Part shown: piece after piece, positions 4,250-61,196 of the stretch
How positions within the stretch are numbered: position 1 is the stretch's first letter
How the letters are laid out: each line of letters begins with the position of its first letter
Origin: Mobula hypostoma
Taxonomy: Eukaryota
NCBI RefSeq assembly: GCF_963921235.1
Contig: NC_086097.1
Location: 7,936,001-8,000,000 of the forward strand
Length of the DNA: 64,000 nt
Reading direction: 5' to 3'
The notes under the pieces: model-generated
Database searches by the model: none
Told to the model about the DNA's origin: nothing
The model's input: the letters and a program-made list of their open reading frames with translations, nothing else
Translations under genes and position numbers: made by a program

Positions 4250-4875
4250 AACTAAAGGTCATATGTTTATCATAGGTTTAGGGTGAAAGGTGAAATATAT
4301 AGGGGAAGTCTGAGGGGAAACTTCTTCACTCAGAAGGTGGTGCATGTGTGAAATGAGCATAAGAGGCCATAAGATATAGGAGCCAAATCAGGCAATATGG
4401 CCCATTGAGTCTGATCCACCATTTCATAAGGGTTAAAAATAGAAAATCTGTAGATGCTGGAAATCTGAGCAACACGCACAAAATGCTGGAGGAACTCAGC
4501 AGGCCAGGCAGCATCTAGGAAAAGAGTACAGTCAACGTTTCAGCCTGAAATCCTTCGGCAGGACTCTAGACTTTCATCAAGGTTGAATAATTTCCCTCTC
4601 GGCTCCAATCTCCTGCCTCTCCCCATAATCCTTCATGCCCTGTTTAATCAAGAACATATCAACCTCTGCCTTCAATATACCCAATGACTTGGCCTCCACA
4701 AGTAGTGAATGTGAGTTTAATTGTAACATTTAAGAGAAGTTTGGATGGGCACCTGGATGTGAGAGGTACGGAGAGATATGAGCTGGGTGCAGGTAGATGG
4801 GAATAGACAGAAGACAATGCTAGCTTAGAGTAGATGGACCAAAGGGTGTATTTTTTCCCTGTCCTATGACTCTAT
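4250..4875. mobile_element. Nested CR1 3' ends (plus-strand host, minus-strand insert) containing a PLE tail
   Basis: Plus-strand CR1 3' sequence at 4250-4358 resumes near 4700. A minus-strand CR1 3' UTR lies between, itself split by the 4435-4571 insert. Confidence 0.7.
4435..4571 (-). mobile_element. PLE 3' terminal fragment with decayed hammerhead motif
   Basis: GATGCTGGAAAT..GCTGGAGGAACTCAGCAGGCCAGGCAGCATC terminus is shared with other PLE copies. Flanked by imperfect direct repeat TTTCATAAGGGTT / TTTCATCAAGGTT. Confidence 0.8.
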
Positions 4876-6736: not shown

Positions 6737-6990
6737 CAAACAAGAGAAAGTCTGCAAATGCTGGAAATCCAAGCAACACACACAAAATGTTGGAGGAACT
6801 CAGAAGTCAGGCAGCATCTCTGGGAAAGAGTACAGTCGACATTTCAGGCTGAAAATTTTCAGCAAGACTGGAGAAAAAAAGCTGAGGAGTAAAGTTAAAA
6901 GGTGGGGGGAGGGGAGAGAATTACCGAGCAATAGGTGAAACCTGGAAGGTGGGGGGATGAAGCAAAGAGCTGTGAAGTTGATTGGTGAAG
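6737..6990 (-). mobile_element. PLE 3' fragment
   Basis: PLE terminus, decayed hammerhead motif (6833-6870) and purine-rich UTR as in other copies. Confidence 0.8.
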
Positions 6991-12714: not shown

Positions 12715-15290
12715 AACATGAGAGATTCTGCAGATGCTGGAAATCTAGAGCAGCACACACAAAATACTGGAGCAACTCAACAAGTCAGGCAGCATCTATG
12801 GAAAAAAATAAACCATTGACTTTTCGGGCTGAGACCATTCATCAGGAATGGAAAGAAAGGGGGGAGATACTTGAATAAAAAGCTGGGGAGAGGGGCAGGA
12901 GAATAGCTAGAAGATGATAGGTGACGCCAGGTGGGTGTTAGAGATAAAGGGCTGGAGAGGAAGCAATCTGATAGGAGAGGAGAGTGGACCATAGGAGGAA
13001 GGGAAAGAGGAGGGGCACCAGGGGGAGTTAATAAACAGGTGAGAAGAGAAACATAGAAACATAGAAAATAGGTGCAGGAGTAGGCCATTCAGCCCTTCGA
13101 GCCTGCACCGCCATTCAGTATGATCATGGCTGATCATCCAACTCAGAACCCTGCACCAGCCTTCCCTCCATACCCCCTGATCCCTTTAGCCACAAGGGTC
13201 ATATCTAACTCCCTCTTAAATATAGCCAATGAACTGGCCTCAACTGTTTCCTGCGGCAGAGAATTCCACAGATTCACCACTCTCTGTGTGAAAAAGGTTT
13301 TCCTAATCTCGGTCCTAAAAGGTTTCCCTTTTATCCTCAAACTGTGACCCCTCGTTCTGGACTTCCCCAACATTCGGGAACAATCAGATCCCCCCTCAAT
13401 CTTCTAAATTCCAACGAGTATAAGCCTAGTTCATCCAGTCTTAGCCTAGTTCATCCAGTCTTTCATCATATGAAAGTCCTGCCATCCCAGGAATCAATTT
13501 GGTGAACCTTCTTTGTACTCCCTCTATGACAAGGATGTCTTTCCTCAGATTAGGGGATCAAAACTGCACACAATACTCCAGGTGTGCTCTCACCAAGGCC
13601 TTGTACAACTGCAGTAGTACCTCCCTGCTCCTGTACTCGAATCCTCTTGCTATAAATGCCAGCATACCATTCGCCTATTTCACCACCTGCTGTACCTGCA
13701 AGCCCACTTTCAATGACTGGTGTATAATGACACCCAGGTCTTGTTGCACTTCCCCTTTTCCTAATCGGCCACCATTCAGATAATAATCTGTTTTCCTGTT
13801 TTTGCCACCAAAGTGGATAACTTCACATTTACCCACATTAAATTGCATCTGCCATGAATTTGCCCAGTCACCTAACCTATCCAAGTCACCCTGCATCCTC
13901 TTAGCATCCTCCTCACAGCTAACACTGCCGCCCAGCTTCGTGTCATCCGCAAACTTGGAGATGCTGCATTTTATTCCCTCATCCAAGTCATTAATATATA
14001 TTGTAAACAACTGGGGTCCCAGCACTGAGCCTTGCGGTACCCCACTAGTCATTGCCTGCCATTCTGAAAAGGTCCCGTTTATTCCCACTCTTTACTTCCT
14101 GTCTGCCAACCAATTCTCTATCCACATCAATACCTTACCCCCAATACCGTGTGCTTTAAGTTTGCACACTAATCTCCTGTGTGGGACCTTGTCAAAAGCC
14201 TTTTGAAAATCCAAATATACCACATCCACTGGTTCTCCCCTATCCACTCTACTAGTTACATCCTCAGAAAATTCTATGAGATTCGTCAGACATGATTTTC
14301 CTTTCACAAATCCATGCTGACTTTGTCCGATGATTTCACCGCTTTCCAAATGTGCTGTTATCACATCTTTGATAACTGACTCTAGCAGTTTCCCCACCAC
14401 CGATGTTAGGCTAACCGGTCTATAATTCCCTGGTTTCTCTCTCCCTCCTTTATTAAAAAGTGAGGTTACATTAGCCACCCTCCAATGCTCAGCAACTAGT
14501 CCAGAATCTAAAGAGATTTGAAAAATTATCACTAATGCACCCACTATTTCTTGGGCTAACTCCTTAAGCACTCTGGGATGCAGACCATCTGGCCCTGGGG
14601 ATTTATCTGCCTTTAATCCCTTCAATTTACCTAACACCACTTCCCTACTAACATGTATTTCCCTCAGTTCCTCCATCTCACTGGACCCTCTGTCCCCTAC
14701 TATTTCCGGAAGATTATTTATGTCCTCCTTAATGAAAACAGAACCAAAGTAATTATTCAATTGGTCTGCCATGTCCTTGCTCCCCATAATCAATTCACCT
14801 GTTTCTGTCTGTAGGGGACCTACATTTGTCTTAATCAATCTTTTTCTTTTCACATATCTATAAAAGCTTTTACAGTCAGTTTTTATGTTCCCTGCCAGTT
14901 TTCTCTCACAATCTTTTCTCCCCTTCCTAATTAAGCCCTTTGTCCTCCTCTGCTGAACTCTGAATTTCTCCCAGTCCTCAGGTGAGCCACTTTTTCTGGC
15001 TAATTTGTATGCTTCTTCTTTGGAATTGATACTATCCCTAATTTCCCTTGTCAGCCGCGGGTGCACTACCCTTCCTTGATTTATTCTTTTGCCAAACTGG
15101 GATGAGCAATTGTTGTAGTTCATCCATGCGATCTTTAAATGCTTGCCAAGAGGTAAGAGGCAAGAGTGAGGAATGGAAGAAAAGGGAAGGGGAGGGAATT
15201 ATTTTTACCGGAAGGAGTAATCAATGTTCATGCCATCAAGTTGAAGGCTACCCAGACAAAATATAGGATGTTGTTCCCCCAACCCGAGTA
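12715..15290 (-). mobile_element. PLE 3' fragment (12715-13048 and 15148-15290) split by a young CR1
   Basis: PLE terminus, decayed hammerhead and UTR on the left. The GIY-YIG C-terminal remnant (TCAATGTTCATGCCATCAAGTTG) is on the right. Confidence 0.8.
13049..15147 (-). mobile_element. Young 5'-truncated CR1 LINE (RT domain)
   Basis: ORFs 14092-15123 and 13675-14088 (GVPQGSVLGP, KFADDTKLGG) are in frame across one stop. Tail is (TTCTATGT)n. 5-bp direct repeat AAGAG at 13044-13048 and 15148-15152. Confidence 0.95.
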
Positions 15291-16707: not shown

Positions 16708-16744
16708 AGTCGAAGTTTCAGACCGGAACCCTTCGTCAGGACTG
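16708..16744 (-). ncRNA. Minimal hammerhead ribozyme motif (slightly mutated)
   Basis: Minus strand reads CAGTC-CTGACGA-AGGGTTCCGGTCT-GAAAC-TTC-GACTC. Confidence 0.6.
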
Positions 16745-18242: not shown

Positions 18243-18280
18243 CAGTCCTGAGGAAGGGTTCCGGCCCGAAACGTCAACTC
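18243..18280 (+). ncRNA. Minimal hammerhead ribozyme motif
   Basis: CAGTC-CTGAGGA-AGGGTTCCGGCCC-GAAAC-GTC-AACTC. Core is intact, with a mismatch at the first stem I pair. Confidence 0.65.
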
Positions 18281-18720
18281 ATCATTTCCACGGATGCTGC
18301 CTGACCTGCTGAGTTCCTCCAGCGTGTTGTGAGCGTTAAATATACCCAATGCCTTGCCCTCCACAGCCATCAATGGCAAAGAATTTCACAGATTCACCAC
18401 CCTCTGACTGAAGAAGTTTCTCCTCATCTCTGTTGTAAATGGATGTCCTTCAATTCTGAGGCTGTGTCCTCTGATCCAAGTCACTCCACATCCATTCTTT
18501 CTTGGCCTATCTTCCAGTGATATTGCCTTCTCTTCATCTTGTAACCTTTCCTAGTCTCAGCTCATTCCCAGATTTCTTATTCTTATTTTTCTCCATTTTA
18601 TATGAATGGATCCTTGGTGTAATCCAATTAAGAAGGCCTGCAAAATTAGCCACTTTGAATGTACCCTTGCACTCCAGTGAGTGTAGGCCGCTGGTGTTCT
18701 GTGGTATTGTGTTACCTGTA

Positions 18721-25128: not shown

Positions 25129-26167
25129 GGCAAAGGAGCCTACGTGGCCAGGAGTTCTTTATTTCCGATTCAATCACCACGTGTTTCACACAGGATTGCT
25201 CATGCTTGTATCTGCGATGGTTATTCTTCGAAGTTACCGCTGCCAGCACACACACGAAGCATCCATTTTCATATCCATTCTTAATCAATTCAAATATTGC
25301 ATTCCAGTGTCATTGGCCACAGGTCACGTGTCTGACCTTTAACACCGCGTTATTGGCTCTGCTCCAAGCCAGCATCGATTTATTGCCCTCTTCCCATCAA
25401 GTGACAGTCAATAATTTATGGATGTTTGTTCTCAATCGGCAACGAGCTCGAATCACTCCAGGCAGGCACCAACCACAAAATTCACAAACCTGCATATTAT
25501 ATCTAACTAAAGAACATCTCACAAATAACTTCTTATTTGGAAATCACCTCAGGTCTAGCAGATTACCTGAAGTATCATTGTGTCTTCTTTGAAACATTGA
25601 TCAAGCCCAGCATGTCAAGCCCGGAAAATGGAGAATAGAGTATCTTCACAAAATGGCAGTCTCCATTCCCAAGCATGTGGCAAGAACAAAGATAATTAGT
25701 CTGTCTGCTTCCACTGTCCTTGATTCATTTGAGTTCACTGATTTGTAGACTGTCATTCTTTCCGGCAAACGGGAGAGTATAGAAGATTGTGGTAGATTAT
25801 AACAGGACATAGACAAGATGCAGAGCTAAGATGAGAAATCGCAGACAGAGTTCAATCTGGAAAAGTGTGTAGTAGATTCACATGGTCCAAGTTGTTCTAA
25901 GAAGTCATCTATTAGGCATTCTATAAATTCCTTCTCTTGGGTTCCAGTACCAATCTGATTTTCCCAATCTCCCTAGGTATTGAAATCCCCCATAAGTATT
26001 TTACTTGCCCTTTGTACATGCCTTTTCTGTCTCCCACTGTAATTTATACATCACGTCCTGGCTACTATTCAGAAGCCTCTATATGACTCCCATCAGGGTC
26101 CCTTTACCCTTGTAGTCTATTAACACTGCTCACAAGTATTCTATATCTTCTGATCTGTCACTTCCTT

Positions 26168-26474
26168 GGCCTGCTAACGTCGACTGCACCTCTTCCTATA
26201 GATGCTGCTTGGCCTGCGCGTTCACCTGTCCAGCTCTCGGCTCTATCCCTCCCCCTCCTGTCTTCTCCTATCATTTTGGATCTCCCCCTCCCCCTCCAAC
26301 TTTCAAATCCCTTACTCACTCTTCCTTCAGTTAGTCCTGACGAAGGGTCTCGGCCTGAAACGTCGACTGCACCTCTTCCTATAGATGCTGCTTGGCCTGC
26401 TGCGTTCACCAGCAACTTTGATGTATGTTGCTTGAATTTCCAGCATCTGCAGAATTCCCGTTGTTTGCGTTTAA
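26168..26474 (+). mobile_element. Young PLE 3' terminal fragment with rearranged 5' junction
   Basis: Nearly identical to the pseudo-LTR of the 43180-47650 element. 8-bp direct repeat ACTTCCTT at 26160-26167 and 26475-26482. Confidence 0.92.
26333..26368 (+). ncRNA. Minimal type-I hammerhead ribozyme, intact core
   Basis: AGTC-CTGACGA-AGGGTCTCGGCCT-GAAAC-GTC-GACT: stem I AGTC/GACT, CUGANGA and GAAA boxes, GUC cleavage triplet, palindromic ACGT as minimal stem III. Confidence 0.8.
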
Positions 26475-30401: not shown

Positions 30402-30439
30402 CAGTTCTGAAGAAGGGTCTCAGCCTGAAACGTTGACTG
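30402..30439 (+). ncRNA. Minimal hammerhead ribozyme motif
   Basis: CAGTT-CTGAAGA-AGGGTCTCAGCCT-GAAAC-GTT-GACTG. Core boxes are retained and the cleavage triplet is GUU. Confidence 0.65.
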
Positions 30440-33075: not shown

Positions 33076-34043
33076 ACATAGAAACATAGAAACATAGAAA
33101 ATAGGTGCAGGAGTAGGCCATTCGGCCCTTCGAGCCTGCACCGCCATTTATTATGATCATGGCTGATCATCCAACTCAGAACCCAGCCTTCCCTCCATAC
33201 CCTCTGACCCCTGTAGCCACAAGGGCCATATCTAACTTCCTTTTAAACATAGCTAATGAACTGGCCTCAACAGTTTGCTGTGGCAGAGAATTCCACAGAT
33301 TCACCACTCTCTGTGTGAAGAAGTTTTTCCTAATCTCGGTCCCAAAAGGCTTCCCCTCTGTCCTCAAACTGTGACCCCTCGTTCTGGACCTCCCCAACAT
33401 CGGGAACAATCTTCCCGCATCTAGCCTGTCCAATCCCTTTAGGATCTTATACGTTTCAATCAGATCCCCCCTCAATCTTCTAAATTCCAACGAGTACAAG
33501 CCCAGTTCATCCAGTCTTTCTTCATATGAAAGACCTGCCATCCCAGGAATCAATCTGGTGAACCTTCTTTGTACTCCCTCTATGGCAAAGATGTCTTTCC
33601 TCAGATTAGGGGACCAAAACTGCACACAATACTCCAGGTGTGGTCTCACCAAGGCCTTGTACAACTGCAGTAGTACCTCCCTGCTCCTGTACTCGAATCC
33701 TCTCGCTATAAATGCCAGCATACCGTTCGCCTTTTTCACCGCCTGCTGTACCTGCATGCCCACTTTCAATGACTGGTGTATAATGACACCCAGGTCTCGT
33801 TGCACCTCCCCTTTTCCTAATCGGCCACCATTCAGATAATAATCTGTTTTCCTATTTTTGCCACCAAAGTGGATAACTTCACATTTATCCACATTAAATT
33901 GCATCTGCCACGAGTTTGCCCACTCACCCAACCTATCCAAGTCACCCTGCATCCTCTTAGCATCCTCCTCACTGCTAACACTGCCACCCAGCTTCGTGTC
34001 ATCCGCAAACTTGGAGATGCTGCATTTAATTCCCTCATCCAAG
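33076..34043 (-). mobile_element. Very young 5'-truncated CR1 LINE with uninterrupted ORF2 C-terminus
   Basis: The 288-aa ORF 33176-34042 has no stops ([38 protein letters not shown]). Tail is (TTCTATGT)n. Same subfamily as 13049-15147. Confidence 0.95.
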
Positions 34044-34235
34044 AGGTCTGCTAAGTGAAGGGAAAGACAAAGGAGCTCAGATCTAAGATGACGTTGCTTT
34101 GTGGTCAGCTATTTTTACACCCATAGATATGGAAAAATTCCATTCAAATCCATAGATAAGAATCAATCAATGAGAAAGCCCTTATTGAAACCATGCAGTA
34201 CCAAGCGAAACTTCCAGAGCTTTTCACACTTATGG

Positions 34236-34612: not shown

Positions 34613-34850
34613 AAACAACAAGAGGTTCTGCAGATGCTGGAAATCAAGCGCAAAACATATAAAATGCTGGAGGAACTCAGCAGGTCAGGCAGCATCTATG
34701 GAAATGGATAAACAATTAAAGTTTTCAAGTGAGTCCCTTCAGCAAGACCTGATGAAGGGTCTCAGTCTGAAATGTTGATTGTTTATTCTCCTCCGCAGAT
34801 GCTGCTAGACCTGCTGAGTTCCTCCAACATTTTGTGTGTTGCCCAGAGAC
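34613..34850. mobile_element. Palindromic mini-element made of two back-to-back PLE termini
   Basis: Arms are inverted about 34748, and each has a decayed hammerhead motif. Flanking direct repeat ATGGTCA at 34606-34612 and 34853-34859. Confidence 0.85.
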
Positions 34851-40969: not shown

Positions 40970-41101
40970 CCTTCTCAGTCCTAAAGAAGGGTCTTGGCCA
41001 AAAATGTTGACCGTTTTCCACAGATGCCGCCTGACCTGCTGAGTTCCTCCATCATTTTCTGTGCGTTGTTTTGGATTTCTAGCATCTGCAGACTTTCTCT
41101 G
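40970..41101 (+). mobile_element. PLE terminal fragment
   Basis: Decayed hammerhead followed by CAGATGCCGCCTGACCTGCTGAGTTCCTCC..AGCATCTGCAG. Confidence 0.8.
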
Positions 41102-42985: not shown

Positions 42986-43254
42986 CACTCTTTAGCCTCA
43001 TGAGGAGGTGGAGGCATTGGTGAGCTTACCTGGCCGTGGCTTTTAAGTGGTTGTACCAAGGCATGGTATTTACCAGGAAATGCTATTAGTGATTCACTAA
43101 GTTTAAAGGGAAATTTTATACATGTTACCTCCAAAAAAAAGAGGGATTTCAGAATCGAACAAAACACAATTAATGGCCACTGGAAATTCAAGCAACACAC
43201 ATCAAAGTTGCTGGTGAACGCAGCAGGCCAGGCGGCATCTATAGGAAGAGGTGC

Positions 43255-43290
43255 AGTCGATGTTTCAGGCCGAGACCCTTCGTCAGGACT
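43255..43290 (-). ncRNA. Minimal hammerhead ribozyme in downstream pseudo-LTR
   Basis: Minus strand reads AGTC-CTGACGA-AGGGTCTCGGCCT-GAAAC-ATC-GACT. A G>A change breaks the ACGT palindrome. Confidence 0.7.
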
Positions 43291-43584
43291 AACTGAAGGA
43301 AGAGTGAGTAAGGGATTTGAAAGTTGGAGGGGGAGGGGGAGATCCAAAATGATAGGAGAAGACAGGAGGGGGAGGGATAGAGCCGAGAGCTGGACAGGTG
43401 ATAGGCAAAAGGGGATACGAGAGGATCATGGGACAGGAGGTCCGGGAAGAAAGACGGGGGGGGGGTGACCCAGAGGATGGGCAAGAGGTATATTCAGAGG
43501 GACAGAGGGAGAAAAAGGAGAGTGAGAGAAAGAATGTGTGCATAAAAATGAGTAACAGATGGGGTACGAGGGGGAGGTGGGGCC

Positions 43585-46500
43585 TTAGCGGAAGTTAGAG
43601 AAGTCGATGTTCATGCCATCAGGTTGGAGGCTACCCAGATGGAATATAAGGTGTTGTTCCTCCAACCTGAGTGTGGCTTCATCTCCACAGTAGAGGAGGC
43701 CGTGGATAGACATGTCAGAATGGGAATGGGATGTGGAATTAAAATGTGTGGCCACTGGGAGATCCTGCTTTCTCTGGCGGACAGAGCGTAGATGTTCAGC
43801 AAAGCGGTCTCCCAGTCTGCGTCGGGTCTCACCAATATATAAAAGGCCACATCGGGAGCACCGGACGCAGTATATCACCCCAGTCGACTCACAGGTGAAG
43901 TGATGCCTCACCTGGAAGGACTGTTTGGGGCCCTGAATGGTGGTAAGGGAGGAAGTGTAAGGGCATGTGTAGCACTTGTTCCGCTTACACGGATAAGTGC
44001 CAGGAGGGAGATCAGTGGGGAGGGATGGGGGGGACGAATGGACAAGGGAGTTGTGTAGGGAGCGATCCCTGCGGAATGCAGAGGTGGGGGGAGGGAAAGA
44101 TATGCTTAGTGGTGGGATCCCGTTGGAGGTGGCGGAAATTACGGAGAATAATATGTTGGACCCGGAGACTGGTGGGGTGGTAGTTGAGGACCAGGGGAAC
44201 CCTATTCCTAGTGGGGTGGTGGGAGGATGGAGTGAGAGCAGATGTACGTGAAATGGGGGAGATACGTTTAAGAGCAGAGTTGATAGTGGAGGAAGGGAAG
44301 CCCCTTTCTTTAAAAAAGGAAGACATCTCCCTCGTCCTAGAATGAAAAGCCTCATCCTGAGAGCAGATGCGGCGGAGACGGAGGAATTGCGAGAAGGGGA
44401 TGGCGTTTTTGCAAGAGACAGGGTGAGAAGAGGAATAGTCCAGATAGCTGTGAGAGTCAGTAGGCTTATAGTAGACATCAGTGGATAAGCTGTCTCCAGA
44501 GACAGAGACAGAAAGATCTAGAAAGGGGAGGGAGGTGTCAGAAATGGACCAGGTAAACTTGAGGGCAGGGTGAAAGTTGGAGGCAAAGTTAATAAAGTCA
44601 ACGAGTTCTGCATGCGTGCAGGAAGCAGCGCCAATGCAGTCGTCGATGTAGCAAAGGAAAAGTGGGGGACAGATACCAGAATAGGCACGGAACATAGATT
44701 GTTCCACAAACCCAACAAAAAGGCAGGCATAGCTAGGACCCATACCGGTGCCCATAGCTACACCTTTAGTTTGGAGGAAATGGGAGGAGCCAAAGGAGAA
44801 ATTATTAAGAGTAAGGACTAATTCCGCTAGACGGAGCAGAGTGGTGGTAGAGGGGAACTGATTAGGTCTGGAATCCAAAAAGAAGCGTAGAGCTTTGAGA
44901 CCTTCCTGATGGGGGATGGAAGTATATAAGGACTGGACATCCATGGTGAAAATAAAGCGGTGGGGGCCAGGGAACTTAAAATCATCGAAAAGTTTAAGAG
45001 CGTGAGAAGTGTCACGAACATAGGTCAGAAGGGATTGAACAAGGGGTGATAAAACAGTGTCGAGGTATGCAGAAACGAGTTCGGTGGGGCAGGAGCAAGC
45101 TGAGACAATAGGTCGGCCAGGACAGGCAGGTTTGTGGATCTTGGGTAGGAGGTAGAAACAGGAAGTGCGGGGTGTGGGAACTATAAGGTTGGTAGCAGTG
45201 GACGGGAGATCCCCTGAGCGGATAAAGTCGTTGATAGTGTGGGAGACAATGGCCTGGTGCTCCTTAGTGGGGTCACGATCGAGGGGTAAATAAGGAGGTA
45301 TCCGCGAGTTGTCGCTGTGCCTCGGCAAGGTAGAGGTCAGTACGCCAGACTACAACAGCACTCCCTTTATCAGCGGGTTTAATAATAATGTTGGGATTAG
45401 TGCGGAGGGAGTGGAGAGCAGAGCGTTCCGAAGGAGTGAGGTTGGAATGGGGACAAGGTGCGGTGAAGTCGAGACGGTTGATGTCCCGTCGGCAGTTGGC
45501 AATAAAGAGATCCAGAGCAGGCAGAAGACCAGAGCGGGGTGTCCATGAAGAAGAGGAGGGTTGAAGACGGGAGAAGGGGTCATCGGTGGGGGTGGAAGAG
45601 TCCTTGCCGAAGAAGTAGGCTCGGAAACGGAGACGGCGGAAGAAAAGTTCCGCATCATGGCGAACACGGAACTCGCTGAGGTGTGGGCGAAGGGGGACAA
45701 ACGTGAGGCCCTTACTGAGGACAGAGCGTTCTGCCTCCGACAGTTGAAGGTCGGAGGGGATGGTAAAGACCCGGCATGGATGAGAGCTGGGATCAGAGGA
45801 GGGAGGGGGGAGGCTGGGGGTGTCAATGGAGAGGGGAGGGTTGGGGTGAGAGGAAGATGGAGCCTCTGAGGGCCCAGGAGCTGACGGTGGGATCTGAGGA
45901 AGACGGGGCTGCGGAGTGGTGGTGGGGGAAGGGGAGACCGGAGTCACAACAGCAGCACATAAAGACCCGGCCTGGAGTTCAAGGCTGGAGTCGCAGTTGG
46001 TGGTTGTGCAATCGCTGTGAAGGTGTCCATGGTCGTTGCTGGAGTCCGGGTTTTGAATATGTCCTGAGGTGTTGGAGCCGGCGAGATCAATGGCAGAGGT
46101 CGCAATCTGAAGTTCATGCCTGCTAGCGTCGGGGCCGGCAGGCTCTGGAGTCCGTAGATGTAAGATCTTACGATCTTTGCCTAACATGACAAAGTCAAAA
46201 AAACGGCGATTGCAGGCGTGAATCCGACGGAGGATGAAATAACGGGTAGGACCATTACAGACGGCGAAGAAAGTGTCCCGAAGGTGTGGAAGGGTCTGGG
46301 ATAGGGACACCAAGTACCTCCTCATGGCGGAGAGAGTCGCCTTCAGAGCTTGACGGGAGAAGCGGCGAGAGGCAGAGTCAATAAAATGTGAGTACCTGGG
46401 ATCCTCAGAAAGTCCAAATTGAGAGGCTTGGAAACGAATCCTAAAGCCAACTGGAGTAAGTTGGCGACGGAGGCACGTTCCAAGAAAGGGTATATGGCTG

Positions 46501-46631
46501 TGATAGCGAGTCTGAGTCAAAGTGTGGTCGAAAAGTTGAAGAGCCGAAGAAATTACAGATGGGGAGCAGTGAGAGATGGTTTCACTGAACTCCCGTCGAA
46601 GAGAGGATCTAAACTTCTTCGGTGTAGGCAT
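43585..46631 (-). pseudogene. PLE polyprotein (N-terminal region, RT, Cys linker, GIY-YIG endonuclease), about 1000 aa, with two frameshifts
   Basis: Overlapping ORFs: 45273-46634 (IKPADKG.AVVVW), 44012-45328 (LPKIHK..GRPIVS, MDVQSLYTSIP, GVAMGT, YIDD, PFLD, YYKPT) and 43585-44478 (CKRNKCYTC, VIYCVRCSRCGLLYIGET..R..EH). Shifts occur near 45293 and 44085. Confidence 0.95.
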
Positions 46632-46764
46632 CACTGGAAGAGGCTTCGCAGTAGTGAATTTAACGCAAACAACAGGAATTCTGCAGATGCTGGAAATTCA
46701 AGCAACACACATCAAAGTTGCTGGTGAACGCAGCAGGCCAAGCAGCATCTATAGGCAGAGGTAC

Positions 46765-46800
46765 AGTCGACGTTTCAGGCCGAGACCCTTCGTCAGGACT
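46765..46800 (-). ncRNA. Minimal type-I hammerhead ribozyme in upstream pseudo-LTR, intact core
   Basis: Minus strand reads AGTC-CTGACGA-AGGGTCTCGGCCT-GAAAC-GTC-GACT, about 135 nt upstream of the ORF ATG. Confidence 0.8.
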
Positions 46801-47724
46801 AACTGAAGGAAGAGTGAGTAAGGGATTTGAAAGCTGGAGGGGGAGGGGGAAATCCAAAATGATAGGAGAAGACAGGAGGGGGAGGGATGGAGCCAAGAGC
46901 TGGACAGGTGATTGGCAAAAGGGATATGAGAGGATCATGGGACAGGAGGCCTAGGGAGAAAGACAAGGGGGGGGGACCCAGAGGATGGGCAAGAGGTATA
47001 TTCAGAGGGACAGAGGGAGAAAAAGGAGAGTGAGAGAAAGAATGTGTGCATAAAAATGAGTAACAGATGGGGTACGAGGGGGAGGTGGGGCCTAGCGGAA
47101 GTTAGAGAAGTCGATGTTCATGCCATCAGGTTGGAGGCTACCCAGACGGAATATAAGGTGTTGTTCCTCCAACCTGAGTGTGGCTTCATCTCCACAGTAG
47201 AGGAGGCCGTGGATAGACATGTCAGAATGGGAATGGGATGTGGAATTAAAATGTGTGGCCACTGGGAGATCCTGCTTTCTCTGGCGGACAGAGCGTAGAT
47301 GTTCAGCAAAGCGGTCTCCCAGTCTGCGTCGGGTCTCACCAATATATAAAAGGCCACATCGGGAGCACCGGACGCAGTCTATCACCCCAGTCGACTCACA
47401 GGTGAAGTGTTGCCTCACCTGGAAGGACTGTTTGGAGCCCTGAATGGTGGTAAGGGAGGAAGTGTAAGGGTATGTGTAGCACTTGTTCCGCTTGCGTGGA
47501 TAAGTGCCAGGAGGGAGATCAGTGGGGAGGGATGGGGGGGACGAATGGACAAGGGAGTTGTGTAGGGAGCGATCCCTGCGGAATGCAGAGAGAGGGGGGG
47601 AGGGAAAGATATGCTTAGTGGTGGGATCCCGTTGGAGGTGGCGGAAATTCCGGTCATCTAGTGATTGTCTGATTGGGTCTCCCTTGTCCTGATGTTTGTC
47701 TTCACCAGCAAGAAAATGGGAAAT

Positions 47725-49557: not shown

Positions 49558-50095
49558 TTCATGAGCACAAGAGATTCTGCACGTGTTGGAAATCTAGAGC
49601 AACACACACAAACTGCTGGAGAAACTCATCAGGTCAGGTCAGTATCTATGGAGGAGAATGAACAGTTGATGTTTTGGGCTGAGACTCTTCATCAAGACTG
49701 GAAAAGAAAGGGTGGAAGCCAGAGTTCTTTCATCAGGACTGAAAAGGAAATGGTAAGAAGTCAGAAGAGTGAGGGGGAGTGGAATGAGCACAAGCTGGCT
49801 AGTGACAGGGGAAACCAAGTGAAGGGAGCTAGGTGGGTGAGGGGGGTATGAAGTGCGAAACTCAGTGGTTATTGGTGGAAGAGGTAAAGGATTGAAGAAG
49901 AAGGAGTCTGATAGGAGAGGAGAGTGGACAATGGGATAAAAGAAAGGGGGGGAGCACCAGAGGGAGGTTATGGGTGGGTGAGGGTTAGAGCAAGGGGCAA
50001 GAATGGAGCCAGAATGGGGAATGGCAGAGAAAAAGGCGAAGGGAAAAAATTACCAGTGAATTGATGTTCATGCCACCAGGTTGGAGGCTACCAAC
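49558..50095 (-). mobile_element. Decayed PLE 3' fragment
   Basis: PLE terminus, decayed hammerhead with a partial local duplication (49685-49720 vs 49726-49762), and GSLQPGGMNI remnant. Confidence 0.8.
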
Positions 50096-51619: not shown

Positions 51620-54600
51620 GTTGCTCTGTAGGGAATCTTACTTCCAGGGGAATTATGCTTCTGGGGCGCCTAGGGGTTAGTTGCGGTACTCTCAATGGAT
51701 ACGATTAAATATTCTTGTTTCAGCCTAATACAGCTAAAAAGCACAACTGCTTCCAAGGTCAGTATAGTCAACAAAGGTGACCTAATGCGTTTAAACGAAG
51801 TATCAATGCTGAAAACTGATGGAAATAACTCTGATTGCGGACGGAAGCCCCCACGGAGGAAGCGTGGCTGTAGATTGAGGTTACAAGTGTGTTTAAGAAA
51901 CAGGGTTTTAAACTCCCAGTACCAACTATCTTGCTGACAAATATGCAGTCTCTGGTAAATAAAATTGATGATCTCAGAGTTAGGGTGCTGAATCAGAAGG
52001 ACATTAGGACCACGTATGTCCTTTGTTTCATGGAATCCTGGCTAACCTCTTCCATACTGGATGAAGCGATTCAGATCGACAGGTTTACTGTACGCCATCA
52101 GGATAGATCTATAGAATCTCTCTAAAGCAGAGGTGAAGGAGTATGCCTCATGGTCAACTCTTTTTGGTGCAGAAATATATCAGTGCTGTCCCAATTCTGC
52201 TCACCATATCTAGTAGTTAATATCTAGTAGTTAAGTACCACCCTTTTTACCTACCACAGGAGTTCTCCGGGGTTATTTTGGTAGCAGTATCCAGTCCACA
52301 TCAGGCCAATGTCAATCAGGCTTTAGATGATCTGAGCAATGCTGATCAACATGCACAAAACACTTTCACCATTGTTTTGGGAGATTTTAACCAGGCCAAG
52401 CTGAAAAAAATCACTAAGCAATTACAGATCACTTCCAAAACCAGAAGAAACAATACACTGCATCATTGCTACACCACCATCAAGAATGCCTGCCGTGCTA
52501 TTCCATGCCTTCACTTTGGGAAGTCTGATCACCTGGCTGTATTTCTACTCCTTGAGGATAGACAGAGATTAGAGACTCTGTCTATACGCAGTAGTGGAGA
52601 CCAAGAAGGTATGGACAAGAGAAGCACAGGAGCTTTGAATCGGTGGACTGGACTGTATTCAGGGATTCACCTTCGAAACTGGATGAGTATGCTGCAGTTG
52701 TTACCGACTTCATTACAACCTATGTTGATATACGTGTGCCTACGAAGTCTTACTGCACATTCCCAAACTAAAAGCCATGGATGAAACAGGAGGTACGTCA
52801 TCTGATGAAGGCTATCTGTAGTATTCAAGTCTGGTGACCCAGGACTGTACTAGAAAAACAGGTATGATTTGCGGAGGGCTACTTCAGGGGTGAAGAGACA
52901 ATTTGAAATGAGGTTGGAGGTGACGTCAGATGTACGGCAACTCTGGCAGGGTTTGCAAGACTTTACTTCCTACAAAGCGTAATCCAATAGCGTGAACGGC
53001 AGTGACGCTTTACTGCCTGATGAACTCAATGCCTTCTATGCCCACTTTGAAAGGGAGAATATAACTACAGCTGTGAAGATCCCTGCTGCTTCTGATGACC
53101 CTGTGATCTCTGTCTCAGAGGCTGATGTTAGATTGTCTTTAAAGAGAGTGAACCCTCGCAAGGCAGCAGGTCCCAATGGAGTACCTGGTAAGGCTCTGAA
53201 AACCTGTGCCAACCAACTAGCGGGAGTATTCAAGGACATTTTAAACCTCTCACTGCTATGGGTGGAAGTTCCCACTCGCTTCAAAAAGGCAACAATTACA
53301 CCAGTGTCTAAGAAGAATAATGTGAGCCGCCTTAATGACTATCGCCCGGTAGTACTCACATCTACAGTGATGAAATGTTTTGAGAGGTTGGTTATGACTA
53401 GACTGAACTCCTGCCTCAGCAAGGACCTGGACCAATTGCAATTTGCTTATTGCCACAATACGGCAGATGCAATCTCATTGGCTTTCCACACAGCTTTAGA
53501 CCACCTGGACAACACAAACACCTATGTCAGGATGCTGTTTATCAACTACAGCTCAGCATTTAATGCCATCATTCCCACAATCCTGATTGACAAGTTGCAG
53601 AACCTGGGCCTCTATACCTCCCTCTGCAATTGGACCCACGACTTCCTAATTGGAAGACCACAATCTGAGCGGATTGGTGATAACATCTCCTCCTCGCTAA
53701 CGATCAACACTGGTGCACCTCAGGGGTGTGTGCTTAGCCCACTGCTCTACTCCCTATATACCCATGACTGTGTGGCTAGGCATAGCTCAAATACCATCTA
53801 TAAATTTGCTGATGATACAACCATTGTTGGTAGAATCTCAGGTGGTGACGAGAGGGCGTACAGGGGTGAGATATGCCAACTAGTGGAGTGGTGTCGCAGC
53901 AACAACCTGGCACTCAACGTCAGTAAGACGAAAGAGCTGGTTGTGGACTTCAGGAAGGGTAAGGTAAAGGAACACATGCCAATCCACATAGAGGGATCAG
54001 AAGTGGAGAAAGTGAGCAGTTTCAAGTACCTGGGTGTCAAGATCTCTGAGGATCTAACCTGGTCCCAACATATTGATGTAGTTACAAAGAAGGCAAGACA
54101 GTGGCTATACTTTATTAGGAGATTGAAGAGATTTGGTATGCCAACAAATACACTCAAAAACTTCTATAGATGTACCACTGTCTGGTATGGTGGGGGTGGG
54201 GGGGGGTGCGGGTGAGCTACTGCGCAGGACTGAAAGAAGCTGCAGAGGGTTGTAAATCTAGTCAGCTCCATCCTGGGTACTAGCCTATAAAGTACCCAGG
54301 ACACCTTCAGGGAGTGGTCTCTCAGAAAGGCAGCGTCCATTATTAAGGACTCCCAGCACCCAAGTCATGCCCTTCTCTCGATGTTACTATCAAGTAGGAG
54401 GTACAGAAGCCTGAAGGCACACACTCAGTGATTCAGGAACAGCTTCTTCCCCTCTGCCATATGATTCCTAAATGGACATTGAACCCTTTTTTAAAAATAT
54501 ATATAGTATATCTGTTTTTTGCACGATTTTTAATCTATTCAATACATGGATACTGTATAAAGTATACTGCATAAGATTTATTTATTTATTATTGTTATTA

Positions 54601-57734: not shown

Positions 57735-59305
57735 CATAGTCATAGTCATACTTTATTGATCCCGAGAGAAATTGGTTTTCGTTACAGTTGCACCAACCAA
57801 GAATAGAATATAAATATAGCAATATAAAACCATAAATAATTAAATAGTAATATGTAAATTATGCCAGGAAATAAGTTCAGGACCAGCCTATTGGCTCAGG
57901 GTGTCTGACCCTTCAAGGGAGGAGTTGTAAAGTTTGATGGCCACAGACAGGAATAACTTCCTATGACGCTCAGTGTTGCATCTCGGTGGAATGAGTCTTT
58001 GGCTGAATGTACTCCTGTGCCCAACCAGTCCATTAAGTAGTGGATGGGAGACATTGTCCAAGATGGCATGCAACTTGGACAGCATCCTCTTTTCAGACAC
58101 CACCATTAGAGAGTCCAGTTCCATCCTCACAACATCACTGGCCTTACGAATGAGTTTGTTGATTCTGTTGGTGTCTGCTACCCTCAGCCTGCTGCCCCAG
58201 CACACAACAGCAAACATGATAGCACTGGCCACCACAGACTCGTGGAACATCCTCAGCATCGTCCGATAGATGCTAAAGGACCTCAGTCTCCTCAGGAAAT
58301 AGAGACGGCTCTGGCCCTTGTTGTAGACAGCCTCAGTGTTCTTTGACCAGTCCAGTTTATTGTCAATTCATAACCCCAGGTATTTGTAATCCTCCACCAT
58401 GTTCACACTGACCCCCTAGATGGAAACAGGGGTCACCAATGCCTTAGCCCTCCTCAGGTCTACCACCAGCTCCTTAGTCTTTTTCACATTAAGCTACAGA
58501 TAATTCTGCTCACACCATGTGACAAAGTTTCCTACTGTAGCCCTGTACTCAGCCTCATCTCCCTTGCTGATGCATCCAAGTATGGCAGAGTCATCAGAAA
58601 ACTGAAGATGGCAAGACTCTGTACAGTAGTTGAAGTCCAAGGTGTAAATGATGAAGAGAAAGGGAGACAAGACAGTCCCCTGTGGAGCCCCAGTGCTGCT
58701 GATCACTCTGTTGGACACACAGTGTTGCAAGCACACGTACTGTGGTCTGCCAGTCAGGTAATCAATAATCCATGATACCAGGGAAGCATCCACCTGCATC
58801 CCTGTCAGGTTCTCCCCCAACAGAGCAGGGCGGATGGTGCTGAATGCACTGGAGAAATCAAAAAACATGACCCTCAAGGTGCTCGCTGGCTTGTCCAGGT
58901 GGGCGTAGACATGGTTCAGCAGGTAGGCAATGGCATCCTCAACTCCTCGTCGGGGCTGGTAGGCGAACTGGAGGGGATCTAAGTGTGGCCTGACCATAGG
59001 CCGAAGCAGCTCCAGAACAAGTCTCTCCAGGATCTTCATGATGTGGGAGGTCAATGCCACCGGTCTGTAGTCATTAAGGCCACTGGGGCGCGGCGTCTTC
59101 GGCACAGGGATGAGGCAGGACGTCTTCCACAGCACAGGAACCCTCTGGAGACTCAGGCTGAGGTTGAAGACATGGTGAAGTACTCCACATAGCTGAGGGG
59201 CACAGGTTCTGAGCACCCTGGTACTGACACCATCTGGGCCTGCAGCCTTGCTTGGGTTGAGACGTTTCAACTGTCTTCTCACCTGTTCAGCTGTGAAGCC
59301 CACCG
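57735..59305 (-). mobile_element. Rex1-type LINE (second family), 5' truncated
   Basis: ORF 58494-59303 (NDYRPVALTSHIMK, DPLQFAYQ, FFDFSSAF, GAPQGTVLSP) and ORF 57888-58259. Tail (ATGACT)n. Confidence 0.92.
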
Positions 59306-59319
59306 TGGTGCTTTCGTTT

Positions 59320-60405
59320 TGACTTGTTGTGTCTATGTTGACTTGGAGAAAAATTCAATTTCAGAGTACAAGGCAGGATTCTTGACAGTGTGGAGGAACA
59401 GAGTGATCTTACCATTGATGCCTCAAAGTTGCTACACAAGTTGATAGAATGATTAGGAAATATGGATGATGGTGTGTTGGACTTCATATGTTGTGGGAAT
59501 GTGTTCAAGAGCTGCAAGGTAGTGTTACAGCTCTATAAACTCCAGTTAGACCATTCTTGCATTCAGTTCTAGTTGCTTCATTTTAATAGGACGGATGTGG
59601 AAGATTTAGAGAGGGTGCATAGGAGATTTACAATGATGCTGTCTGGATTACAGAGCATGTCTTCCGAGGATAGGTTGAGCGCACCAGGGCTTTTCTCCTT
59701 GGAGCAAAGGAAGATGAGGGCTGACTTAATACAGGTGTATACGATTCATCATCATTATGTGCCAAGTCGTATGATGTGGGTGATCATGGTCTCCATGGCC
59801 AGGATCGTTCTTGGCAAATTTTTCTGAAGAAGTGGTCTGCCATTGCCTTCTTCTGGGCAGTGTCTTTACAAGATAAGTGACCCCAGGCATCTTCAATACT
59901 CTTTGGAGAGTTTCTTTGTGGTGTCAGTGGCCGCATAACTAGGGCTTGTGACATTCATCAGCCGCTCCTACGACCATCCACCACCTGCTCCCAAGGCTTC
60001 AAGTGACACTGATCGGGAGGCTGAGCAGGTGTTATACCTTGTCTGAGAGTGACCTGCAGGCTTGTGGAGAGAAGGACATATCTCCAACATACCATTCAAA
60101 TCTTGTAAACATAAGATTATCAGAGCCAAAAGTAGAGTCGAGCACATTTTTTAGGGTGGCAAAGAATCACATAGAGGACCTTCTTTTTAAGTGAGTGAAC
60201 AAAAGTTAGCAGGGATGTCAGAGATAGGTTGTTCACACGGAGAGCTGGAATGTGTGGCCAGGAGTGGCGTTATTGGCAGATAGATTAGAGACATTTAAGA
60301 TACTCTTAATAAGCTCATGAACATTAGAAAAATGGAGGATTGTGTAGGAAGAAAGGGTTAGATTGAACTGGAGTAAGCTAAAAGATCAACAAAACATTTT
60401 TGGGT
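59320..60405 (+). mobile_element. Decayed CR1 3' part interrupted by a minus-strand RTE-type non-autonomous element (about 59745-60090)
   Basis: LERVHRRFT..GLFSLEQRKMRADLIQVY stops at the insert, and CR1 sequence resumes near 60105. Confidence 0.75.
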
Positions 60406-61196
60406 TATCTACTATATCCAGTGCCTCCTGTATATCGGTGAGACCCAACGTGGGTTTAGAGACCACTTCACTAAGCACCTTCACTCCATCCACCGCAAAA
60501 AGCGGGATCTCCCTGTGGCCACCCATTTCAATTCTACTTCCCATTCCAGTTCTGACATGTCAGTGCCTGGTCTCCTCTACTGCTAGGATGAAGACACACT
60601 GAGGTGAAGGAACAACACCTTATATTTCATTTGGGTAGCCTCCAAACTGATGGCATGAACATCAAATTCTTGAACTTCCAGTAATGAATATTGTATCATT
60701 TCTTAATGCATGCATTACTAAATGACAATAAAAGAGGACTGCGTGTCCTCATAATCTAATCTAATCTAATCCACCTCCGCCCTCCCACTGCTCTCCTTCA
60801 CCATTTCACTTTCTTGTTTCCCCCTCTCAATTTATTTCCTTACCTGCCCATTACCTCTCTCTGGTGCTCCTCCCCTCTCCCTTATTCCACAGTCTTCTGT
60901 CCACTCCTATCAGATTCCCCATTCTCCAGTTCTTTATCCTTTTCATCAATCAACATCCCAGCTCTTTACTTCACCCCCTTCTTGTCTCCTGGTTTCTCCT
61001 GTCACATGCTACCTTGCACTTCTTTCTCCCCTTCCCCCACCTTCTTACTCTGCCTTTCTTTCCAGTCCTGAAGAAGGGTCTCAGCCCGAAACACTGAGTG
61101 TTTACTCTTTTCCATAGATGCTGCCTGACCTGTTGAGTTCCTCCAGCATTTTGTGTGTGTTGCTTTGGACTTACAGCGTCTGCAGATTTTCTCATG
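60405..61196 (+). mobile_element. Decayed PLE 3' part (GIY-YIG remnant, UTR, hammerhead remnant at 61063-61100) with a short (TCTAA)n-tailed insert at about 60685-60770
   Basis: CTCCTGTATATCGGTGAGACC (LLYIGET) and downstream sequence are collinear with 17740-18335. Confidence 0.85.

What the first reader, a model, noticed from the sequence alone, without database searches (positions are those of the whole stretch)
46765..46800. Family of minimal hammerhead ribozymes carried by PLE termini throughout the window
Seen in sequence: the motif (C)AGTC-CTGANGA-A-GGG..CCY-GAAAC-GTC-GACT(G) recurs about a dozen times. It is intact at 26333(+) and 46765(-), near intact at 18243(+), 30402(+), 43255(-) and 16708(-), and decayed at about 4529, 6833, 12815, 34750, 40976, 49662 and 61063. 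It has the CUGANGA and GAAA core boxes, a stem I closing the ends, a short stem II, and a stem III reduced to the palindrome ACGT. Established: Penelope-like elements carry minimal type-I hammerheads proposed to cleave as dimers. Inference: these are self-cleaving RNAs that define PLE transcript ends, and sense-strand copies could cut any host transcript that crosses this region. The ORF track does not show this layer at all.
Basis: partly seen in the sequence, partly recalled or inferred. Interest (0 to 1): 0.8.

Follow-up and report, generated by a model that had tools for sequence, protein, structure and literature searches.

The report
Penelope retroelement minimal hammerhead ribozymes
The repeated motif is a real minimal hammerhead ribozyme sequence carried near the tail of Penelope-like jumping genes that litter this animal genome, a correct catch of a kind of RNA already described in 2014.

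Summary
Two more decayed copies and three partial copies also exist.

**What it is**
- The motif lies about 100 nt from the 3' end of Penelope-like elements (PLEs). One near-full-length copy sits at 47653-43157 on the minus strand.
- That copy has reverse transcriptase and GIY-YIG endonuclease reading frames and two terminal repeats that are 96.6% identical.
- It has every sequence feature of the published PLE "min-HHR" (PMC4209133). The one departure is a G-U wobble in place of the G10.1-C11.1 pair in the youngest subfamily.

**Tests**
- Rfam's hammerhead models miss it.
- A covariance model built only from hammerheads of 12 unrelated PLE relatives finds seven window copies at E < 1e-4.
- Stem covariation is absent among 25 copies of this genome.
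- Stem II covariation is clear across PLE lineages.
- The genome holds 67,728 copies matching an intact core pattern.

**Limits**
- Cleavage was not testable here.
- Folding favours an inactive hairpin.
- Published work on a lizard PLE shows weak, protein-assisted cleavage that is dispensable in vitro (PMC11167929).

This is a known kind, and the scan has found it before in other shark windows.

The parts
46765..46800 (-). Intact minimal hammerhead in the upstream terminal repeat (pLTR). Layout: stem I AGTC/GACT, core CUGACGA, bulged A, stem II GGGU/GCCU with loop CUCG, GAAA, palindrome ACGU. The predicted cut is after C17, between 46769 and 46768.
   Evidence: Exact match. Passes the descriptor. 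Best hit of the cross-lineage covariance model, 32.8 bits, E 7.9e-08.
43255..43290 (-). Hammerhead of the downstream terminal repeat. It has one CpG-type change, G16.2 to A, which breaks the ACGU palindrome. The predicted cut site lies 3,510 nt from the upstream one.
   Evidence: Covariance model hit at 30.6 bits, E 3.8e-07.
43157..46662 (-). Body of a near-full-length Penelope-like element. Its reading frame is in three overlapping pieces, so it is broken in at least two places: 46697-45273 (contains KPADKG), 45349-44012 (RT) and 44517-43585 (CX4CxxC linker plus GIY-YIG). A 3' untranslated part and the tail follow.
   Evidence: ORF list. RVT_1 at E 1.5e-05 and GIY-YIG at E 8e-04, both below Pfam's cut-offs. 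270 relatives at E <= 1e-10, the listed ones 788-1358 aa, carrying PF00078, PF28514, PF26215 and often PF01541.
46663..47653 (-). 5'-truncated upstream copy in partial tandem. Together with the downstream end it forms the pseudo-LTR. It holds an endonuclease frame (47769-47092), the 3' untranslated part, the hammerhead, and about 100 nt of conserved tail (46764-46663).
   Evidence: 96.6% identity to 44144-43180 over 967 nt and over 614 nt. The depth of laid contigs steps up at 46658-46671.
26333..26368 (+). Intact hammerhead in a 5'-truncated copy (26222-26474). A partial fragment (26165-26226) lies just before it.
   Evidence: Covariance model E 1.5e-07.
18244..18279 (+). Hammerhead of a second subfamily (loop UCCG, 11.1 = C). 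The core is intact. G1.1 to A breaks the first pair of stem I. An endonuclease frame lies upstream at 17132-18004(+).
   Evidence: Covariance model E 3.3e-07.
16708..16743 (-). Hammerhead of the copy that lies head to head with the 18244 copy; the two 5' ends meet near 17187. G16.2 to U breaks the palindrome.
   Evidence: Covariance model E 1.2e-05.
30403..30438 (+). Copy of a third subfamily (N7 = A). It still passes the descriptor, with a GUU site and a G-U pair in stem I.
   Evidence: Covariance model E 8.8e-05.
61064..61099 (+). Copy whose 5' core is intact but whose cut site is destroyed (ACGUC became ACACU).
   Evidence: Covariance model E 2.2e-05.
4530..4565 (-). Decayed copy (A6 to C and 5 other changes).
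6834..6869 (-). Decayed copy (C3 to U, A6 to C, stem II lost).
12814..12849 (-). Decayed copy. The CUGAUGA box is kept; 15.2 and stem I are changed.
   Evidence: Covariance model E 0.071.
34714..34780 (.). Head-to-head pair of two decayed copies, 34714-34749(-) and 34745-34780(+), that overlap at their 5' ends.
40977..41012 (+). Dead copy (G5 to A, G12 to A).
49664..49699 (-). Dead copy (C3 to U, G12 to A). The 1,000-base BLAST query did not pick it up.

Best explanation
These are copies of the minimal type-I hammerhead motif (min-HHR) that belongs to the terminal module of endonuclease-bearing Penelope-like retrotransposons. Here the family looks Neptune-like.

**The RNA motif.** It offers stem I (4-5 bp, open ended), the core boxes CUGANGA and GAAA, one bulged A, and a 4-bp stem II capped by a tetraloop. 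There is no helix III of its own. The four bases A15.1-C-G-U16.1 are a palindrome, so helix III can form only when two motifs pair. The two motifs can be the two terminal repeats of one tandem transcript, or two separate RNAs. Cutting would then follow GUC. For the element at 47653-43157 this predicts a 3,510-nt unit RNA.

**The genomic copies.** Nearly all copies in the genome are 5'-truncated, dead-on-arrival fragments made of the motif plus a conserved tail of about 100 nt. They decay mainly at their CpGs.

**Shown:** the identity of the motif, its carrier, its place in the element, its abundance, and its conservation across PLE lineages.

**Inferred:** that it cuts in vivo, and what the cut is for. 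The options are processing of more-than-unit transcripts, or some other role in retrotransposition.
For: **The motif and its chance level**
- Exact and near-exact motif copies.
- The descriptor finds 3 window sites; none of 200 simulated windows gave any hit.

**The carrier**
- The RT, CX4CxxC, GIY-YIG and KPADKG frames, a partial tandem with 96.6% identical repeats, and inverted 5'-truncated copies. These match the PLE anatomy in PMC8557442 (passages read).

**Published min-HHR traits seen here** (PMC4209133, text read)
- Short helix I.
- An unpaired base between A9 and 10.1.
- G at 10.1.
- A palindromic 15.2-16.2.
- No loop 3.

**Comparison with other PLE lineages**
- A covariance model built from 12 hammerheads of other PLE lineages, with no sequence of this genome, hits 7 window copies at E < 1e-4 and 2 more near 0.003.
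- In 80 metagenome loci encoding RT relatives (33-63% identity), the descriptor hits 13 loci on the RT strand, 1 on the other strand, and 0.03 in simulations.
- Matches to the core boxes alone number 53 on the RT strand. Of these, 40 have a stem II of at least 3 bp, in 15 different sequence combinations. The other strand gives 20 and 5, and simulation gives 13.2 and 1.2.
- The hits lie about 600-1300 nt after, or 1350-1835 nt before, the RT match in 11 of 13 cases, as in the window.

**Variation inside this genome**
- The subfamilies differ only where a hammerhead may vary: N7, loop 2, 11.1 C/U and H17 C/U.
- Genome-wide there are 67,728 matches to an intact-core pattern and 157,373 to a tail pattern, with 0 for the reversed controls.
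Against: - No cleavage data exist for these sequences.
- Rfam's hammerhead families give no hit even at E up to 10.
- Stems I and II show no covariation among 25 copies of this genome.
- Nearest-neighbour folding prefers an inactive rod hairpin in which G5-G8 pair with C15.2-C17 (-11.0 kcal/mol). The hammerhead-compatible fold scores -7.0. The ACGU/ACGU duplex is worth only -1.7, and the best dimer is an extended duplex.
- In the youngest subfamily, 10.1-11.1 is G-U rather than the conserved G-C.
- Published min-HHRs cut poorly in vitro (PMC4209133). In the lizard element PAc the cut needs the element's protein, is not needed for insertion in vitro, and leaves no RNA-seq ends (PMC11167929, passages read).
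- The 5' ends of 38 young copies do not pile up at the predicted cut site: only 1 of the 17 that start near the motif begins there.
Confidence: 0.85

Rival explanations
1. The motif is kept mainly as a structured RNA (or cDNA) element used in retrotransposition, and catalysis is weak or incidental. It might act as a hairpin or dimerisation site that the RT-endonuclease recognises, or as the place where reverse transcription ends or switches template.
For: - The rod hairpin is 4 kcal/mol more stable than the hammerhead-compatible fold.
- Of 38 young copies, 17 have their 5' end within 60 nt around the 5' edge of the motif. The other starts are 14 spread over about 750 nt upstream and 7 that reach further.
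- Head-to-head pairs counted with one anchor number 1,931 (gap 0-30), 5,062 (gap 31-60) and 1,283 (gap 61-90). A gap of 48 means both copies start at the first base of stem I.
- PAc cleavage is dispensable for insertion in vitro (PMC11167929).
- PMC8557442 notes that PLE clades without hammerheads proliferate well.
Against: - A pure hairpin role does not explain why the bases left unpaired in the hairpin (C3, U4, A9, G12-A14) are the invariant ones across lineages while the stems change.
- Nor does it explain why N7, which pairs in the hairpin, is the free position.
- The 5'-end pile-up could equally be a transcription start in the terminal repeat.
- The sample of 38 was drawn through intact motifs, and pairs are counted twice.
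Confidence: 0.25
2. The short units (motif plus tail, about 140 nt, often in inverted pairs) are a non-autonomous, SINE-like or retrozyme-like family that borrows the PLE machinery. On this view they are not simply truncated PLE copies.
For: - Several copies begin at the first base of stem I with unrelated DNA upstream, for example 4565(-), L018 and L009:2281.
- The depth of laid contigs is far higher over the tail and motif than upstream.
- A 2026 preprint links animal retrozymes to PLE terminal repeats (10.64898/2026.07.22.740005; abstract and results read).
Against: - No tandem arrays of motif-bearing units exist in the window. Retrozymes are defined by such arrays.
- Copy starts form a continuum from the tail up to the full element.
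- Every subfamily's short copies match the 3' end of a longer PLE copy.
Confidence: 0.2
3. The resemblance is chance: an ordinary piece of a repeat happens to contain CUGANGA and GAAA and was then amplified.
For: - Within this genome all copies descend from few sources, so copy number adds no independent support.
- Within-genome covariation is nil.
Against: - 0 descriptor hits in 200 simulated windows.
- Independent PLE lineages carry the same architecture, with different stems, at the same place relative to the RT.
- The cross-lineage model finds the copies.
Confidence: 0.02

Closest known systems
Minimal hammerheads (min-HHR) in the pseudo-LTRs of metazoan Penelope-like elements (Cervera and De la Pena 2014, PMC4209133; whole text parts 1-2 read)
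   Same: - Type I topology, with a helix I of 4-5 bp.
- One unpaired base after A9, and G at 10.1.
- No loop 3, with a palindromic 15.2-16.2.
- Present in both terminal repeats about 3.5 kb apart.
- Many solitary truncated copies and inverted pairs.
- Thousands of copies per genome.
   Different: - Helix II here is short (4 pairs including two wobbles, plus a tetraloop); the paper reports 7-8 bp in Schistosoma.
- 11.1 is U in the youngest subfamily.
- The copy number found here (67,728 intact-core matches) is well above the roughly 4,000 and 9,000 quoted for coelacanth and Xenopus.
- No cartilaginous fish is named in the text I read, and I did not see its supplements.
Hammerhead of the Poseidon element PAc of Anolis carolinensis (PMC11167929; passages read)
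   Same: A minimal motif with stems I and II only, in the terminal repeat of an endonuclease-bearing PLE of a vertebrate.
   Different: - In PAc the reading frame starts inside the motif (at stem II). Here the motif lies about 70 nt before the stop-to-stop frame, and no start codon is in it in the main subfamily.
- PAc cleavage was measured (protein-assisted). Nothing was measured here.
Non-LTR retrozymes of animals (PMC7229834, search listing and abstract only; preprint 10.64898/2026.07.22.740005, abstract and results read)
   Same: Type I hammerheads related to PLE terminal repeats, and non-coding short units.
   Different: Retrozymes are tandem arrays of 170-400-bp units that give circular RNAs. 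No such array exists in the window. Here the units are dispersed or in inverted pairs.
Canonical type I hammerheads of Rfam (Hammerhead_1 and relatives)
   Same: The same catalytic core boxes and the same order of helices.
   Different: They have a helix III hairpin and loop-loop contacts between helices I and II. Rfam's models give no match here, at gathering score or at E up to 10.

Membership tests
PLE minimal hammerhead (min-HHR) | Core boxes C3-U4-G5-A6-N7-G8-A9 and G12-A13-A14, then A15.1...U16.1 and H17 | tested here: met
   Exact in 26333(+) and 46765(-). 3 pattern matches, with no match in any of 100 shuffles. Per-copy table.
PLE minimal hammerhead (min-HHR) | Type I topology with a short open helix I (4-5 bp) flanking the core and the cut site | tested here: met
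   AGUC/GACU plus a fifth U-G or C-G pair. The descriptor finds 3 window sites and none in 200 simulated windows.
PLE minimal hammerhead (min-HHR) | One unpaired nucleotide between A9 and 10.1 | tested here: met
   An A at that place is invariant in 25 of 25 aligned copies. The same A is present in 11 of 13 descriptor hits of other lineages.
PLE minimal hammerhead (min-HHR) | G10.1-C11.1 pair | tested here: inconclusive
   G10.1 is present. 11.1 is U (wobble) in the exact copies and in 13 of 25 aligned copies, and C in 6 of 25. C11.1-G12 is a CpG.
PLE minimal hammerhead (min-HHR) | No helix III loop; 15.2-16.2 palindromic, so helix III forms only between two motifs | tested here: met
   ACGU lies directly before C17. 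Other lineages show ACGU, AUAU, AGCU, ACCGGU.
PLE minimal hammerhead (min-HHR) | Lies in the terminal repeat or 3' end of a PLE, on the coding strand | tested here: met
   Motifs at 46800 and 43290 flank the RT-EN frames on the minus strand. Other lineages give 13 loci on the RT strand against 1 on the other.
PLE minimal hammerhead (min-HHR) | Recognised by a structure-and-sequence model of the family's other members | tested here: met
   Model R1, built from 12 metagenome PLE hammerheads only, gives 7 window hits at E < 1e-4. E-values are rough because calibration was shortened.
PLE minimal hammerhead (min-HHR) | Compensatory changes in helices I and II | tested here: inconclusive
   None within this genome. 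Across lineages stem II varies in 15 combinations among 40 matches chosen by the core boxes alone. Stem I variation was seen only in hits that a stem-demanding descriptor had selected.
PLE minimal hammerhead (min-HHR) | Self-cleavage after H17, as a dimer | not testable with these tools
   No RNA run on record holds the stretch, and only contigs could be laid.
Rfam hammerhead families (types I, II, III, HH9, HH10) | Score at or above the family's gathering threshold | tested here: not met
   0 matches in the whole window at gathering score. No hammerhead family at E up to 10 over 46700-46880.
Endonuclease-bearing Penelope-like element | PLE-type reverse transcriptase, with the DKG motif upstream | tested here: met
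   RVT_1 at E 1.5e-05, 25.2 bits, below the 29.6 cut-off. 270 relatives at E <= 1e-10, best 59% identity. KPADKG is read in the 46697-45273 frame and in the consensus of the relatives. The motif's meaning is from PMC8557442.
Endonuclease-bearing Penelope-like element | C-terminal GIY-YIG endonuclease with two cysteines inside the core; a CX2-5CxxC linker in Neptune and Nematis | tested here: met
   GIY-YIG at E 8e-04, 20.1 bits, below the 22.6 cut-off. CKRNKCYTC and VIYCVRCSRCGLLYIGET are read in the translation. The clade was not placed by a tree.
Endonuclease-bearing Penelope-like element | Partial tandem giving pseudo-LTRs, frequent 5' truncation, adjacent inverted truncated copies | tested here: met
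   There are 5,272 tight head-to-head pairs by one anchor and 8,276 by another.
Non-LTR retrozyme | Tandem array of hammerhead-bearing units | tested here: not met
   Tandem Repeats Finder reports only a 20-nt x 2 repeat in the window.

The most novel reading that the evidence does not exclude
The 5' edge of the ribozyme may be a preferred end point of the copies. Head-to-head pairs are most frequent when both arms begin in or just before the 5' half of the motif: 5,062 loci at gap 31-60, against 1,931 at shorter gaps and 1,283 at longer ones. In addition, 17 of 38 young copies start within 60 nt of that edge.

This would mean the hammerhead module acts in retrotransposition itself. Three possibilities fit: a stop or template-switch point for the reverse transcriptase once the hairpin has been copied; a pairing site that joins two cDNAs primed from both target strands; or the site of a transcription start. 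On this reading its role would not be, or not only be, that of an RNA-cutting device.
Probability: 0.15. Interest if true: 0.55.

Novelty: new member of a known kind. Interest (0 to 1): 0.25.

Why it matters
- It confirms that a tool-less reading of raw sequence recognised a catalytic RNA motif that the standard Rfam scan misses. That is a practical point for annotation: PLE minimal hammerheads need their own descriptor or model.
- With at least 67,728 intact-core copies, this genome is a rich natural library of one ribozyme and its CpG-decay variants.
- It also offers many head-to-head insertions for studying how Penelope-like elements integrate.
- For ribozyme biology the find adds no new principle.

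Tried and rejected
- **Rfam:** no family hit the whole window at gathering score, and no hammerhead family hit 46700-46880 at E up to 10.
- **Within-genome covariation:** the 25 copies not chosen by the core pattern gave nothing above the shuffles.
- **Tail structure:** RNAalifold on motif plus tail of 13 copies gave a weak consensus (-1.03 kcal/mol). It did not recover the hammerhead stems. A possible GAUGCUG/CAGCAUC pairing in the tail has 1 compensatory case only.
- **RNA evidence:** no RNA holder is listed for 46560-46960. The four runs laid are contigs, which cannot show RNA ends. No place where molecules begin or end was reported.
- **5' ends at the cut site:** I considered that copy 5' ends might mark the ribozyme cut. 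Only 1 of the 17 starts near the motif lies at the predicted bond, so I rejected this.
- **Host transcripts:** the twelve further long reading frames scanned gave only retroelement domains (5 of 12) or nothing (7 of 12), so the idea of host transcripts being cut could not be examined.

Full report
**Observation**

The string AGTC-CTGACGA-A-GGGTCTCGGCCT-GAAAC-GTC-GACT is exact at 26333-26368(+) and 46765-46800(-). At 43255-43290(-) it has one change. A looser pattern of core boxes gives 3 window matches, and none of 100 shuffles gave any match.

An HMM of the motif plus its downstream tail finds 18 places in the window and 77 in the 214,840 bases I held at that stage.

One search lists how each of 14 window copies differs from the exact one. 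Two are identical, five have 1-7 changes, and seven have 6-15 changes. Many changes are CpG-type transitions, because the motif holds four to five CpGs.

**The carrier**

On the minus strand, 47653-43157 is a Penelope-like element (PLE) in the usual partial tandem.
- A 5'-truncated copy (endonuclease frame 47769-47092, motif at 46800, tail to about 46663) is followed directly by a near-full-length copy.
- The frame of the full copy is in three overlapping pieces: 46697-45273, 45349-44012 and 44517-43585.
- The full copy ends with a second motif at 43290 and a tail.
- The two repeats are 96.6% identical over 967 nt.

Pfam gives RVT_1 (E 1.5e-05) and GIY-YIG (E 8e-04), in that order. Both scores are below Pfam's own cut-offs. 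The RT piece has 270 relatives at E <= 1e-10, and the listed ones are 788-1358 aa long. They carry PF00078, PF28514, PF26215 and often PF01541, with a best identity of 59%.

The translation shows three marks: KPADKG, a CX4CxxC linker, and two cysteines between the GIY and YIG parts. Passages of PMC8557442 give these as marks of PLEs, and the linker as a mark of the Neptune and Nematis clades. I built no tree, so "Neptune-like" is a reading, not a placement.

Other large frames in the window are LINE-type reverse transcriptases and a second PLE endonuclease at 17132-18004(+).

**The motif against the published kind**

Cervera and De la Pena (PMC4209133; text read) defined the min-HHR of metazoan PLEs by these features:
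- a short helix I;
- an unpaired base between A9 and 10.1;
- a conserved G10.1-C11.1 pair;
- no loop 3;
- a palindromic 15.2-16.2, so that two motifs must pair to build helix III.

Every one of these is seen here, except that 11.1 is U (a wobble with G10.1) in the youngest subfamily. Helix II is short: G-U, G-C, G-C, U-G, capped by CUCG.

**Chance and membership**

- A descriptor written from those features finds 3 distinct sites in the window and none in 200 simulated windows.
- Rfam finds nothing, at gathering score over the whole window or at E up to 10 over the finding.

To get a test that does not lean on this genome, I fetched 80 metagenome loci that encode relatives of the RT at 33-63% identity.
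- The descriptor hits 13 of the 80 loci on the RT strand and 1 on the other. Simulation gives 0.03.
- In 11 of the 13, the hit lies about 600-1300 nt after, or 1350-1835 nt before, the RT match. The window's two motifs lie at about +800 and -1470 (my arithmetic).
- Asking for the core boxes only, with no demand on stems, gives 53 matches on the RT strand. Of these, 40 have a stem II of at least 3 bp, in 39 loci, with 15 different combinations of the first three pairs. The other strand gives 20 and 5, and simulation gives 13.2 and 1.2.
- A covariance model built from 12 of these foreign hammerheads alone then finds the window's copies. Seven hits have E < 1e-4, two are near 0.003, and two are weaker, all at known copies. 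Two hits near E 0.5-0.8 lie elsewhere. The E-values are rough because calibration is shortened.

**Covariation inside the genome**

I aligned 25 copies that had not been picked by the core pattern. The named structure has 82.5% of cells paired against 81.7% in shuffles, and 115 of 500 shuffles reach that value. Covariation scores equal the shuffles.

But these copies are dead fragments decaying neutrally, so the result says nothing about the RNA. What does differ between subfamilies falls only where a hammerhead may vary: N7 (C, A, U, G), loop 2, 11.1 (C or U) and H17 (C or U).

**Abundance**

- The genome (3.48 Gb in 200 contigs) holds 67,728 matches to an intact-core pattern.
- It holds 157,373 matches to a 24-nt tail pattern.
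- The reversed control patterns give 0.

**How it would work, and doubts**

*Inferred mechanism.* In a transcript spanning two motifs, the two ACGU segments pair. Each core then cuts after GUC, which releases a 3,510-nt unit from the element at 47653-43157.

*Against an efficient reaction.*
- The 38-nt RNA folds best into a rod hairpin that pairs G5-G8 with C15.2-C17 (-11.0 kcal/mol). The hammerhead-compatible fold scores -7.0.
- The ACGU duplex is worth -1.7, and the best dimer is an extended duplex at -30.3. These energies ignore tertiary contacts.
- The literature agrees that such motifs cut weakly as dimers (PMC4209133).
- In the lizard element PAc they need the element's protein, are dispensable for insertion in vitro, and leave no RNA-seq ends (PMC11167929, passages read).

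A lone motif lacks helix III, only 3 of 15 window copies pass the descriptor, and I could not identify a host gene in the window.

**Seen on the way**

Copies very often lie head to head.
- With the anchor CCCTTCNTCAG..CTGANGAAGGG there are 3,111, 1,403 and 758 loci for gaps of 0-30, 31-60 and 61-90.
- With an anchor further inside the motif (GTCRACGTTTC..GAAACGTYGAC) there are 1,931, 5,062 and 1,283. A gap of 48 there means that both copies start at the first base of stem I.
- Of 38 young copies in my loci, 17 start within 60 nt around that edge, 14 start further upstream, and 7 reach the limit of the query.
- That sample was drawn through intact motifs and counts both members of pairs.

Inverted truncated copies next to PLEs are known (PMC8557442). 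A preferred end at the ribozyme's edge is something I did not find stated in the passages I read. I did not search for it specifically.

**RNA evidence**

No RNA holder is listed for the stretch. The runs laid are contigs and show only that the tail and motif are far more abundant than the DNA upstream.

**Verdict**

This is a correct identification of a known kind of ribozyme-bearing retroelement end. It is a new family member at most.
- Two literature searches and the texts read name no cartilaginous-fish PLE hammerhead.
- The 2026 preprint sampled one chondrichthyan for retrozymes. I could not see its supplements, nor those of PMC4209133.
- Earlier notes of this scan report the same class in three other shark windows and call this genome a cartilaginous fish. 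I did not test the organism.

Noticed in passing
genome-wide (G000); in the window 34714-34780 and 16615-18352: Head-to-head inverted pairs of 5'-truncated PLE ends are very common. By one anchor there are 8,276 loci with gaps up to 90 nt. The gap histogram peaks at 31-60 (5,062 loci), against 1,931 at 0-30 and 1,283 at 61-90. The peak corresponds to both arms starting in or just before the 5' half of the hammerhead.
   Followed up: partly
window 46663-46764 (-) and all other copies: The roughly 100-nt tail after the motif is conserved across subfamilies as strongly as the motif itself, while the sequence just upstream of stem I differs by subfamily. The tail holds GATGCTG and two copies of its complement CAGCAT(C). 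RNAalifold support for a pairing is weak (-1.03 kcal/mol).
   Followed up: partly
window 46764-46801 (-): As a monomer the motif folds best into a rod hairpin in which core bases G5-G8 pair with C15.2-C17 (-11.0 against -7.0 kcal/mol). This is a built-in inactive state whenever N7 is C or U and helix III is ACGU.
   Followed up: partly
L068, L069, L071, L072, L074, L075, L077, L079, L081, L083, L091, L092, L099, L100, L102, L112, L115 (metagenome PLE loci): More distant PLE relatives (33-39% RT identity) carry, downstream of the RT, a second hammerhead-like type: CUGAUGAG, then a GCC..GGC stem II without the bulged A, then GAAACCGU. My descriptor could not assign its helix III or its cut site.
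   Followed up: no
window 26165-26226 (+): A 62-nt fragment that begins inside the motif (its 3' half plus spacer) lies directly in front of a longer truncated copy (26222-26474). This is a small same-strand duplication at an insertion site.
   Followed up: no
window 14092-15198(-), 33176-34108(-), 52983-54215(+), 58494-59354(-): Several LINE-type reverse transcriptase frames are present (RVT_1 E from 2.2e-28 to 5e-04). The one at 52983-54215 also matches ALKBH8_N. No host gene was recognised among the 12 further long frames scanned, so the window looks like a pile of retroelements.
   Followed up: no
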